From: a virus
Lineage: Duplodnaviria > Heunggongvirae > Uroviricota > Caudoviricetes
DNA length: 11,077 nt
Reading direction: 5' to 3' (one strand)
IMG/VR virus record: IMGVR_UViG_2703718845_000001
This document shows positions 1 through 318 of the stretch, in pieces. Position 1 is the stretch's first letter; the number at the start of each line of letters is the position of its first letter. A model generated the notes under the pieces. It did no database searches. It worked only from the letters and a program-made list of their open reading frames with translations, and was not told where the DNA came from. The position numbers and the translations under genes were made by a program.

Positions 1-45
1 TTTTATACCTGCTTATACTCTGTCACGGTATCCTATAGGTATCCT

Positions 46-84
46 AGAAAAAACGAAGGGGTCACGCTGTTAACGTAACCCCTT
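46..84 (-). terminator. Rho-independent terminator-like hairpin (minus strand) downstream of the displaced tRNA fragment
   Basis: Minus-strand reading gives stem aagggg/cccctt with internal acg/cgt pairing followed by a U-run (plus-strand agaaaaaa at 46-53). Confidence 0.5.
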
Positions 85-92
85 GCTAGATT

Positions 93-138
93 TGGTGGCC
101 CTTGCTGGACTTGAACCAGCGACCAAGCGATTATGAGT
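93..138 (-). other. Partial tRNA (3' 46 nt, anticodon loop to CCA end) - displaced att copy, not a complete gene
   Basis: Reverse complement reads actcataatcgcttggtcgctggttcaagtccagcaagggccacca: T-arm and acceptor 3' strand of a CAU tRNA; the sequence beyond 138 does not continue as tRNA. Confidence 0.7.
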
Positions 139-149
139 TGGTTGATAAC

Positions 150-318
150 CCTTTACTTACAGATACTTAGCGATACTTTTCAATACCTTAGCATTTTTTA
201 AAACTACTGTATAAATACCTGTATATACCCCAAAATACTTCTTTACGGTATCCTATAGGTATCCTGGAGCAGAACAAGCGATTTTCCAGGATACCAGATC
301 GCTTGGTGGGGTGTATGA
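150..318. promoter_or_regulatory. int-upstream region with repeated GGTATCCT / GATAC-type motifs (putative att arm sites and/or int promoter-operator)
   Basis: Exact 20-mer cggtatcctataggtatcct at 246-265 (also at 26-45 and 10941-10960), inverted copy aggatacc at 288-295, inverted repeat acaagcgat / atcgcttgg (272-280 / 297-305), several gatact/atacct repeats at 162-238. Confidence 0.35.

What the first reader, a model, noticed from the sequence alone, without database searches (positions are those of the whole stretch)
26..305. Exact 20-mer CGGTATCCTATAGGTATCCT at both att arms and upstream of int
The same 20-mer (two GGTATCCT units separated by ATA) occurs at 26-45, 246-265 and 10941-10960, with an inverted unit aggatacc at 288-295 and an inverted repeat acaagcgat / atcgcttgg that echoes the att core ccaagcgat. 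This arrangement is what arm-type and core-type integrase or recombination-directionality-factor binding sites would look like, and may also autoregulate int.
Basis: seen in the sequence. Interest (0 to 1): 0.45.

Follow-up and report, generated by a model that had tools for sequence, protein, structure and literature searches.

The report
Integrase arm sites of satellite island
The repeated 20-mer is most likely the pair of accessory ("arm-type") docking sites that the island's own integrase uses on each side of its tRNA attachment site, an ordinary feature of a phage-satellite island that is unusually well supported here by comparison with relatives.

Summary
The 20-mer is exact at 26-45, 246-265 and 10941-10960, with no match in 200 shuffles.

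Positions 26-45 and 10941-10960 lie inside a 138-nt repeat. That repeat is the int-distal (P') end of a ~10.9-kb capsid-forming PICI-like island inserted in tRNA-Ile(CAU). Window 1-92 is not chromosome. It is the P' end of a second element lying in tandem to the left.

The island's own attP therefore carries one pair in each arm:
- P' arm: 10942-10960, at -107 from the crossover.
- P arm: 247-265, at +113, plus one inverted unit at 288-295.

Evidence comes from about 80 relatives chosen by integrase homology (53-100% identity):
- Every lineage has an 11-bp-spaced pair at about +112/113, whatever its distance to int.
- The unit changes with lineage (GGTATCCT, GGTATCCC, ATATCCCC, GGCACCCC, GCGGCACA).
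- The same lineage-specific pair recurs in the far arm and nowhere else in the locus.
- Unit class follows the integrase N-terminal arm-binding domain, not the excisionase-like HTH protein.

Verdict: arm-type integrase sites, a new member of a known kind. Autoregulation of int is plausible but untested.

The parts
1..92 (+). P' (int-distal) arm of a second, neighbouring element lying in tandem to the left. It holds auxiliary repeats at 5-10 and 15-20, the 20-mer at 26-45, and a tRNA terminator hairpin at 56-84 on the minus strand.
   Evidence: Positions 1-85 are 100% identical to 10916-11000. The native chromosome flank is different in K-12 and in the single-island strains PK5074 and L004. E. 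coli A33 has the same tandem junction.
27..45 (+). Arm-type pair of the neighbouring element's P' arm: units 27-34 and 38-45, 11-bp period.
93..138 (-). Displaced 3' half of tRNA-Ile(CAU), ileY-type T arm. It ends in the 19-nt identity block 120-138. The presumed 7-nt overlap TTATGAG (the anticodon loop) is at 131-137, centre 134.
   Evidence: Identical to K-12 ileY; alignment.
139..318 (+). P (int-proximal) arm of the island's attP.
   Evidence: Conserved blocks across 30 unique arms; present in 87 of 5426 E. coli genomes.
178..190 (+). IHF-consensus-like site TTTCAATACCTTA, one mismatch to WATCAANNNNTTR, at +44/45 from the overlap centre.
   Evidence: A perfect consensus lies at the same position in 11 relatives' arms.
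207..222 (+). CTGTATAAATACCTGT, a degenerate version of the CTGTATAAATAACCAG LexA-box-like block that relatives carry at +72/73.
   Evidence: 23 of 51 unique arms have CTGT-N8-[AC]CAG at +72/73, and two Aeromonas-type arms have one at +24, making 25 in all. In L133 and L146 the block fills the spacer of a TTGACA-17-AATACT promoter.
213..240 (+). Auxiliary repeats ATACCT, ATACCC and ATACTT at about 10-nt phasing, immediately left of the pair. The binding protein is unknown; the excisionase-like HTH protein is a candidate.
   Evidence: Present next to the pair on both arms and in all unit classes.
247..265 (+). Arm-type pair of the P arm: units 247-254 and 258-265, at +113 and +124 from the overlap centre.
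275..282 (+). Core-like CAAGCGAT (pseudo-core), which is also the 5' arm of an 8-bp inverted repeat.
288..295 (-). Third P-arm unit, in inverted orientation (AGGATACC on the + strand). It changes together with the direct units in relatives.
   Evidence: GGGATACC in the GGTATCCC-class lineages L132-139.
298..306 (-). Inverted copy of the core CCAAGCGAT, which is also the 3' arm of the inverted repeat. It lies just before the Shine-Dalgarno-like GGTGGGG.
319..1740 (+). Tyrosine integrase, 473 aa: N-terminal arm DNA-binding domain (residues 9-94) plus catalytic domain.
   Evidence: PF13356 at E=2.5e-13 and PF00589 at E=1.1e-12; weak match to the arm-binding domains 3JU0 and 3JTZ.
2583..2801 (+). 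Excisionase-family HTH_17 protein, the AlpA-like candidate directionality factor or activator.
   Evidence: PF12728; TIGR01764 'excise'; PHROG excisionase families.
10916..11007 (+). P' (int-distal) arm of the island's attP. It holds auxiliary repeats at 10920-10935, the pair, a tRNA terminator at 10971-10999 on the minus strand, and a perfect IHF-consensus site TAACCCCTTGATA at 10991-11003 on the minus strand.
   Evidence: present in 60 E. coli genomes.
10942..10960 (+). Arm-type pair of the P' arm: units 10942-10949 and 10953-10960, at -107 and -96 from the overlap centre 11049.
11008..11077 (-). tRNA-Ile(CAU) gene, whose 5' end is cut off by the end of the window. Its 3' half (11008-11053) is supplied by the island. 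The identity block is 11035-11053 and the overlap is 11046-11052.
   Evidence: Rfam tRNA, 55.3 bits; annotated as tRNA-Ile in PK5074.

Best explanation
The GGTATCCT-ATA-GGTATCCT 20-mer is a pair of arm-type binding sites for the N-terminal arm-binding domain of the island's own tyrosine integrase.

**What is shown.**
- The island is a capsid-forming PICI-like satellite of about 10.9 kb. It inserts into the anticodon-loop region of tRNA-Ile(CAU), at ileY or ileX.
- Its attP is about 300 bp long and carries five units:
  - two direct units in the P' arm, at -107 and -96;
  - two direct units in the P arm, at +113 and +124;
  - one inverted unit in the P arm, at +154.
- IHF-consensus-like sites lie between each pair and the core.

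**What is inferred, by analogy with lambda, P4 and KplE1.**
- Integrase protomers bind an arm unit with the N-domain and a core half-site with the core-binding and catalytic domains.
- IHF bends the arms back onto the core, giving the intasome that integrates and excises the island.
- The P-arm units lie between the likely int promoter and the int start codon. Bound integrase probably also represses int.

**The third copy.** The copy at 26-45 is the same P' pair in a second element inserted in tandem.
For: **1. Domain.** The integrase has the PF13356 arm DNA-binding domain at residues 9-94.

**2. Distribution.** The 8-mer is exact seven times and only in the arms.

**3. Unbiased comparison.**
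- Loci were chosen by integrase homology, 53-100% identity.
- In 61 of 63 loci with at least 160 nt upstream of int, picked out an 11-bp-spaced tandem pair upstream of int. In L149 and L150 the pair it picked was a different one, and the lineage's own pair was read by eye.
- The unit differs by lineage: GGTATCCT, GGTATCCC, ATATCCCC, GTATCCCC, GGCACCCC, GCGGCACA.

**4. Agreement between the two arms.**
- The lineage's own pair was searched over the whole 10-20-kb locus on both strands.
- It recurs only at the far end, in the same orientation, in L171, L004, L006, L002, L075, L108, L101, L137, L139, L148, L163 and L167. In L150 the far-end pair was read by eye.
- Wherever the tRNA is in view, this second pair lies 63-67 nt outside the tRNA 3' end. 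L163's far end is not next to a tRNA-Ile.
- The inverted unit changes in step, from AGGATACC to GGGATACC.

**5. Geometry.**
- The P pair starts at +112/+113 from the overlap centre in 24 distinct arm types, with one at +122.
- Its distance to the int start varies from 34 to 108 nt.
- The P' pair lies at -104 to -108, across unrelated intervening sequence.

**6. Which protein reads the units.**
- Unit class follows the integrase N-domain: 65-100% identity within the GGTATCCT class, against 45-57% for the ATATCCCC, GGCACCCC and GCGGCACA classes.
- In those classes the N-domain has diverged more than the rest of the protein.
- Class-specific substitutions sit in the predicted beta-strands.
- The excisionase-like HTH protein does not follow unit class. 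It is 82% and 77% identical in the GGCACCCC-class L147 and L148, but 60-63% in the GGTATCCT-class L119-122.

**7. Conservation.** The pair is the most conserved P-arm block outside the core in 30 unique arms. Many P' arms with wholly different flanks and terminators keep it.

**8. IHF-like sites.** They lie at fixed positions in both arms.

**9. Precedents.**
- Arm sites that overlap Pint give negative autoregulation in KplE1, and P4 is cited there too.
- The integrase of PAI I536 represses its own expression and has an IHF site in its int promoter region.
- DUF4102 is the arm-binding domain of the IntSXT/P4 subgroup.
- An int-attP fragment is enough for PICI integration.
Against: - No binding or genetic data exist; everything is comparative.
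- Unit class and integrase N-domain sit on the same phylogeny. The link is a correlation with about four or five independent class changes.
- The structure model of the integrase is poor (mean pLDDT 49). Placement of the class-specific residues on a DNA-binding face is therefore weak.
- The window has no consensus sigma-70 promoter, so the autoregulation step is inferred from relatives.
- In EcCICFT073, a different PICI, int regulation was studied only with respect to AlpA.
- A second, class-independent repeat next to the pair shows that at least one other factor binds the arms.
Confidence: 0.8

Rival explanations
1. The 20-mer pairs are binding sites for the island's directionality factor or activator, the excisionase-family HTH_17 (AlpA-like) protein at 2583-2801, rather than for the integrase.
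For: - Head-to-tail repeats about one helical turn apart are typical of Xis or TorI-type directionality-factor sites.
- The island encodes an excisionase-family HTH protein.
- AlpA is the key activator in E. coli PICIs.
Against: - The HTH protein's similarity does not follow the unit class.
- Identical pairs on both arms, plus an inverted third unit, match arm-type integrase sites. Directionality-factor sites are usually confined to one arm (established knowledge for lambda, P22 and KplE1).
- A different neighbouring repeat, [AT]TAC[CT][CT] versus AT[TG]ACC, changes together with the HTH recognition helix and is a better candidate for its site.
- AlpA did not control Pint in EcCICFT073.
Confidence: 0.07
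2. The P-arm copy (246-265, with 288-295) is mainly a transcriptional operator for int. The similarity to the P' arm is a by-product of an old duplication and has no role in recombination.
For: - The pair lies 11-30 nt downstream of a 10/12 sigma-70 promoter in L133 and L146.
- It lies 54-72 nt upstream of the int start in the window.
- KplE1, P4 and PAI I536 show autoregulation through att-region sites.
Against: - The pair keeps a fixed distance to the crossover (+112/113), not to the int start (34-108 nt).
- The P' copy is conserved at -104 to -108 and changes together with the P copy across lineages whose flanks are unrelated. A by-product would not behave this way.
- The operator and arm-site roles do not exclude each other.
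Confidence: 0.05
3. The units bind a host protein, or are a packaging or replication signal of the satellite such as a cos/pac element or iterons.
For: - 11-bp-period arrays of GGTATCCT occur in unrelated viral contigs.
- The P' arm follows a conserved non-coding stretch, about 10506-10915, shared by islands with different capsid modules.
Against: - The unit sequence changes between islands that use the same tRNA core and similar enterobacterial-type flanks.
- The island's iterons are a different motif, CTGTTCACC, at 6244-6460.
- The position is fixed relative to the crossover point, and the unit class follows the integrase N-domain.
Confidence: 0.03
4. The copies are chance, or a recent duplication with no function.
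For: 26-45 and 10941-10960 are indeed just two copies of one 138-nt repeat.
Against: - None of 200 shuffles gave a match.
- The pair is conserved in arms whose flanks have diverged beyond recognition, in relatives with integrases down to 55% identity, with changes matched between the two arms.
Confidence: 0.01

Closest known systems
Arm-type sites P1, P2 and P'1-P'3 of bacteriophage lambda attP (heterobivalent Int, with IHF, Xis and Fis)
   Same: - Five short units distinct from the core, spread over both arms within about +/-160 bp of the crossover.
- Adjacent units about one helical turn apart.
- An integrase with a separate N-terminal arm-binding domain.
- IHF-consensus sites between the arm units and the core.
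   Different: - The unit sequence is unrelated.
- The arm-binding domain is the PF13356/DUF4102 type, which has an extra strand and helix.
- The core is a tRNA anticodon stem-loop, and the element restores the tRNA 3' half and supplies its terminator.
- No binding data exist.
Satellite phage P4 integrase, attP and Vis (P4-like or IntSXT-subgroup integrases inserting in tRNA genes)
   Same: - DUF4102-type arm-binding domain.
- tRNA target, int next to attP, and an excisionase-like HTH partner.
- int is reported to be repressed by Int and by Vis (cited). An IHF site lies in the int regulatory region.
   Different: - The integrase is below 31% identical to any integrase in 50,697 deposited phage genomes, so this is a separate clade.
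- The target is the anticodon loop of tRNA-Ile(CAU).
- The P4 arm repeats, which I know only from memory (Pierson and Kahn 1987), have a different sequence.
KplE1 (CPS-53) IntS and TorI at argW: arm-type sites overlapping PintS give negative autoregulation
   Same: Arm-type units sit between or over the int promoter elements and the int start. The int gene and the directionality-factor gene are uncoupled.
   Different: - The promoter is not mapped here.
- In the window the -35 and -10 are poor.
- A core-like inverted repeat surrounds the third unit.
Arm-binding domains of the HPI (Yersinia) and HAI7 (Pectobacterium) island integrases (PDB 3JU0, 3JTZ, 3RMP)
   Same: Same Pfam domain family. The sequence match to residues 21-99 is weak (E=0.016).
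   Different: The similarity is only distant. The cognate arm sites of those proteins were not compared here.
E. coli PICIs such as EcCICFT073, and capsid-forming PICIs
   Same: Same gene order: int, alpA-like HTH, D5-type primase, iteron origin and capsid genes. An int-attP fragment mediates integration.
   Different: No arm-type sites of PICI integrases turned up in the paper searches run here. This island uses ileY or ileX.

Membership tests
Arm-type sites of a heterobivalent tyrosine integrase (lambda Int paradigm) | The integrase carries a separate N-terminal arm DNA-binding domain. | tested here: met
   PF13356 Arm-DNA-bind_3 at residues 9-94, E=2.5e-13, above the curated cut-off. Weak match to 3JU0 and 3JTZ.
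Arm-type sites of a heterobivalent tyrosine integrase (lambda Int paradigm) | Repeated units, different from the core sequence, on both sides of the crossover within attP. | tested here: met
   Units at -107, -96, +113 and +124, plus an inverted one at +154. They occur nowhere else in the 11 kb.
Arm-type sites of a heterobivalent tyrosine integrase (lambda Int paradigm) | The sites evolve together with the integrase: the same unit in both arms of one element, different units in diverged elements. | tested here: met
   Four alternative unit classes, GGTATCCC, GTATCCCC, GGCACCCC and GCGGCACA, have both arms in view. In each one the P and P' pairs match. Unit class follows the N-domain, not the HTH protein.
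Arm-type sites of a heterobivalent tyrosine integrase (lambda Int paradigm) | Sites for a DNA-bending protein (IHF) between the arm sites and the core. | tested here: inconclusive
   The consensus WATCAANNNNTTR is perfect in the P' arm (10991-11003) and has one mismatch in the P arm (178-190). It is perfect at the same position in 11 relatives. This is a consensus match only.
Arm-type sites of a heterobivalent tyrosine integrase (lambda Int paradigm) | Direct, sequence-specific binding of the integrase N-domain to the units, and a requirement for them in recombination. | not testable with these tools
   Needs EMSA or footprinting, and mutation of attP.
Directionality-factor (Xis, TorI or AlpA-type) binding sites | The site sequence follows the element's excisionase-family protein. 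| tested here: not met
   HTH_17 identity is 77-82% in the GGCACCCC-class loci but 60-63% in some GGTATCCT-class loci. The neighbouring auxiliary repeat, not the 20-mer, changes with the HTH recognition helix.
Negatively autoregulated int promoter overlapping att (KplE1 IntS paradigm) | The int promoter overlaps or lies immediately upstream of integrase-binding sites. | tested here: inconclusive
   L133 and L146 have TTGACA-17-AATACT ending 18-21 nt before the pair. No consensus promoter is found in the window or in L025. The transcription start site is unknown.
Phage-inducible chromosomal island (capsid-forming PICI type) | About 10-15 kb, flanked by att repeats at a fixed site, with int, an alpA-like gene, a primase-replicase, an origin, and capsid or packaging genes but no tail or lysis genes. 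| tested here: met
   Present: int, HTH_17, D5-type primase, iterons at 6244-6460, ClpP-capsid fusion and DUF1441. RefSeq annotation of near-identical islands agrees. Induction by a helper phage was not tested.

The most novel reading that the evidence does not exclude
The P arm may be more than a recombination arm. It may be a combined control hub for int, made of four parts:
- a LexA-box-like operator at a fixed +72/73. It is intact in 23 of the 51 relatives' arms (two Aeromonas-type arms have a perfect box at +24 instead) and degenerate in this window;
- excisionase-type auxiliary repeats beside the integrase pair on both arms;
- the integrase pair itself;
- a 'mini-att' just before the ribosome-binding site, in which a core-like inverted repeat surrounds an inverted arm unit.

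Together these would tie int expression to the SOS response, to integrase level and to the excision state.

Separately, the natural series of unit classes and N-domain variants gives a readable recognition code for the DUF4102 arm-binding domain. For example, Q21R, G25R and R33I accompany the change from T to C at the last unit base.
Probability: 0.25. Interest if true: 0.5.

Novelty: new member of a known kind. Interest (0 to 1): 0.35.

Why it matters
- It defines the functional attP of a widespread family of enterobacterial phage satellites that insert at tRNA-Ile(CAU): about 300 bp, five integrase units, IHF-like sites, and an island-borne tRNA 3' half with its terminator.
- It corrects the island boundary. 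Window 1-92 belongs to a tandem neighbour.
- It offers a natural specificity series of unit classes against N-domain variants. This could guide experiments on how DUF4102-type arm-binding domains read DNA, or the retargeting of such integrases.
- It does not change the general picture of tyrosine-integrase recombination.

Tried and rejected
- **Genome-contig scan.** The single integrase query returned only 3 loci, and none reached the far end of its island. I replaced it with a viral-contig scan using a 13-sequence alignment.
- **Motif-based scan of viral contigs.** It is biased by design, so I used it only for P'-arm diversity. About a third of the hits are unrelated 11-bp arrays or chance matches.
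- **Structure prediction of the integrase.** Mean pLDDT was 49, so I ran no fold search and used only the N-domain secondary structure, with caution.
- **RNA hairpin at 275-282/298-305.**
  - 88% of cells pair, with 7 G-U pairs and 3 compensatory cells.
  - Only 3 of 500 shuffles reached this, but the sequences are related.
  - The minimum-free-energy fold prefers pairing of the second direct unit with the inverted unit, and its z-score is only -1.4.
  - Left as inconclusive.
- **Sigma-70 scan of window 1-400.** No site found.
- **Rfam.** Only the tRNA.
- **Literature search for the motif string.** No paper holds the 18-mer. Hits for the 8-mer are unrelated primers.
- **Auxiliary ATAC-type repeats as weak inverted integrase units.** Rejected, because they do not change with the unit class.
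- **Iterons, packaging signal or host-factor sites.** Considered and rejected; see the rival explanations.

Full report
**1. The observation**

The 20-mer CGGTATCCTATAGGTATCCT is exact at 26-45, 246-265 and 10941-10960. None of 200 shuffles gave a match, even with three mismatches allowed.

Its 8-nt unit GGTATCCT is exact seven times in the window, and only at these places. Six copies are direct and one, at 288-295, is inverted.

The sequences acaagcgat (274-282) and atcgcttgg (298-306) are as described. The second is an exact inverted copy of the core CCAAGCGAT.

Positions 1-85 are identical, and all seven differences fall in 86-119. The copy at 246-265 sits in a looser 45-nt module, at 78% identity.

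**2. What the window is**

The window holds an island of about 10.9 kb. Its genes are:
- a tyrosine integrase at 319-1740;
- an excisionase-family HTH_17 protein at 2583-2801;
- a D5-type primase;
- an iteron region at 6244-6460;
- a ClpP-capsid fusion;
- a DUF1441 protein.

Near-identical islands in E. coli are annotated the same way. They sit at tRNA-Ile between ypjA/ypjC and glaH, which is the ileY locus. The identical integrase also occurs at ileX.

The tRNA lies on the minus strand and is cut by the right end of the window. The island supplies the 3' half of the tRNA and an intrinsic terminator.

The longest identity between the two junctions in the single-island strain PK5074 is CGACCAAGCGATTATGAGT. 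It ends at the anticodon loop TTATGAG. I take that loop as the overlap region, by analogy with other anticodon-loop integrases. This is an inference.

**3. Correcting the layout**

In K-12, which has no island, the sequence left of the tRNA 3' half is native chromosome and has no 20-mer. The same is true at the left junction of the single-island strains PK5074 and L004.

Window 1-92 is instead the island's own right-end sequence. So a second element, or at least its right end, lies in tandem to the left. E. coli A33 carries three or more such islands head to tail with the same junction.

The island's attP arms are therefore:
- the int-proximal P arm, 139-318, with the pair at 247-265 and the inverted unit at 288-295;
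- the int-distal P' arm, about 10916-11007, with the pair at 10942-10960.

**4. Comparative test**

I collected about 80 loci by integrase homology alone, at 53-100% identity, plus three from reference genomes.

*A pair in every lineage.* In 61 of 63 loci with enough upstream sequence, picked out a tandem pair with an 11-bp period upstream of int. In L149 and L150 the pair it picked was a different one, and I read the lineage's own pair by eye. The unit differs by lineage:
- GGTATCCT, in integrases about 67-100% identical to the window's;
- GGTATCCC;
- ATATCCCC;
- GTATCCCC;
- GGCACCCC;
- GCGGCACA.

*The far arm matches.* I searched each lineage's own pair over its whole locus on both strands. 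It recurs only once, at the far end and in the same orientation, in all 12 loci where one search found a second copy. L150 adds a thirteenth, read by eye. Wherever the tRNA is in view, the second pair lies 63-67 nt outside the tRNA 3' end. L163's far end is not next to a tRNA-Ile.

*The inverted unit changes too.* AGGATACC becomes GGGATACC in the GGTATCCC lineages.

*Fixed geometry.* The P pair starts at +112/+113 from the overlap centre in 24 distinct arm types, with one at +122. Its distance to the int start ranges from 34 to 108 nt. The P' pair lies at -104 to -108, although the sequence between it and the tRNA is unrelated between lineages.

*Conservation.* In 30 unique arms of the GGTATCCT class, the pair is the most conserved block outside the core.

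**5. Which protein reads the units**

Unit class follows the integrase N-terminal domain. Identity to the window's N-domain is 65-100% in the GGTATCCT class and 69-71% in the GGTATCCC class. It is 45-57% in the ATATCCCC, GGCACCCC and GCGGCACA classes. In those three classes the N-domain has diverged more than the rest of the protein.

Class-specific substitutions lie in the predicted strands of that domain. One example is Q21R, G25R and R33I between the GGTATCCT and GGTATCCC classes. The structure model is of low confidence.

The excisionase-like HTH protein does not follow unit class. It is 82% and 77% identical in two GGCACCCC-class loci, but 60-63% in several GGTATCCT-class loci.

This is a correlation, based on about four or five independent class changes.

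**6. Other features of the arms**

*IHF-like sites.* They lie at fixed positions. At +44/45 in the P arm the window has one mismatch, and 11 relatives' arms are perfect. A second site lies just before the tRNA 3' end in the P' arm, perfect in the window at 10991-11003.

*Auxiliary repeats.* Two or three repeats, [AT]TAC[CT][CT], flank the pair on both arms in all unit classes. They switch to AT[TG]ACC in lineages whose HTH protein has a different recognition helix. They may be the excisionase's sites, but this rests on only one or two independent splits.

*LexA-box-like block.* CTGTATAAATAACCAG lies at +72/73 in 23 of 51 unique arms. It fills the spacer of a TTGACA-17-AATACT promoter in some lineages. 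Two Aeromonas-type arms have a perfect CTGT-N8-ACAG at +24. The window's version, CTGTATAAATACCTGT, has lost the second half-site, and no consensus promoter is found there.

*Core echo.* The core-like CAAGCGAT / ATCGCTTG inverted repeat around the inverted unit is conserved. It could be a core-type integrase site or a hairpin, and the pair counts are inconclusive.

**7. Mechanism**

*Shown:* the anatomy, the conservation, the agreement between the two arms and the fixed geometry.

*Inferred from the lambda, P4 and KplE1 paradigms* (and established knowledge):
- integrase protomers bridge arm units and core half-sites;
- IHF bends the arms;
- the excisionase-like protein biases the reaction towards excision;
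- integrase bound to the P-arm units, which lie downstream of the likely promoter, represses int.

**8. Comparison and novelty**

This is a lambda-type arm-site architecture for a DUF4102/P4-like (IntSXT-subgroup) integrase.

The integrase is below 31% identical to any integrase in deposited phage genomes. The motif string is absent from the searchable literature. The PICI papers I consulted report no binding-site mapping within attP.

It is a new member of a known kind: well supported, useful for annotation and for studying arm-binding specificity, but not surprising.

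Noticed in passing
window 1-138; compare L001 13990-14330: The window starts inside a tandem junction: the right end of another element is fused through the att core to this island's int-proximal arm. Only 1 of 5426 complete E. coli genomes (A33, which has three or more islands head to tail) covers window 1-320.
   Followed up: partly
window 86-119 versus 11001-11034: The tRNA 3' half at the left junction is the native ileY type (CCCTTGCTGGACTTGAACCAGC), although it is preceded by island sequence. The right junction and the A33 tandem junction carry the island type (CCCCTGTTGGGTTTGAACCAAC). L077 shows the same P' arm fused to an ileX-type half. This suggests exchange by homologous recombination or gene conversion within the 45-nt tRNA repeat. 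It remains unexplained.
   Followed up: partly
window 207-222; relatives at +72/73 from the overlap centre: A LexA-box-like CTGTATAAATAACCAG (CTGT-N8-CCAG) lies at +72/73 in 23 of 51 unique P arms. In L133 and L146 it lies inside the spacer of a TTGACA-17-AATACT promoter. Two Aeromonas-type arms have a perfect CTGT-N8-ACAG at +24. The window's copy has lost its second half-site. This points to SOS control of int in many relatives. No paper combining 'LexA box', 'PICI' and 'integrase' was found.
   Followed up: partly
window 4-21, 213-240, 10919-10936: Auxiliary repeats [AT]TAC[CT][CT], at about 10-nt phasing, lie directly left of the arm pair on both arms in all unit classes. They switch to AT[TG]ACC where the HTH_17 recognition helix changes from QTLANWA[CH]TG to RTLANWHSSG. 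They are candidate excisionase sites.
   Followed up: partly
window 178-190 and 10991-11003: IHF-consensus-like sites lie at conserved positions in both arms. The P' site overlaps the 3' side of the island-borne tRNA terminator stem. The tandem neighbour's copy at 76-88 has a mismatch, TTGCTA.
   Followed up: partly
L004 versus L002 and the window: The same integrase (100% identical) and the same arms occur at both ileX (yqjH...mug) and ileY (ypjC...glaH). They are combined with different capsid modules: a ClpP-capsid fusion, or Phage_cap_E, a head-decoration protein and Nu1.
   Followed up: partly
L026 3520-3640; L161 9800-10000: The same pair-plus-auxiliary module sits next to tRNAs other than tRNA-Ile(CAU). 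L026 has TGGTGGGTCGTGGGAGGTTCGAA. L161 has the core CCAATTGATTAAGAG. So the arm module is kept when the core target changes.
   Followed up: no
L017/L038/L064, L031/L093, L046/L069/L071, L056, L092: Unrelated viral contigs carry long head-to-tail arrays, up to about 9 units, of GGTATCCT-like 8-mers with the same 11-bp period. Some lie next to DnaA-box-like TTATCCACA repeats. Their context was not examined.
   Followed up: no
window 6244-6460: A dense set of direct and inverted CTGTTCACC iterons lies just after the primase gene. This is probably the island's replication origin.
   Followed up: no
window 6621-6714 and 9156-9249: A 94-nt direct repeat, 93% identical, covers the starts of two small paralogous minus-strand ORFs (6511-6714 and 9055-9249). 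One lies before the capsid gene and one after it.
   Followed up: no
window about 10506-10915: A non-coding stretch of about 400 nt before the P' arm is conserved between islands with different capsid and terminase modules. It includes the palindrome 10657-10682. It may be a packaging (cos/pac) or regulatory region.
   Followed up: no
window 2808-3812: A 334-aa ORF has a C-terminal Icd-like, 'cell division inhibitor' or repressor-type domain at residues about 252-333. In relatives the Icd-like protein is a separate 67-aa gene.
   Followed up: no
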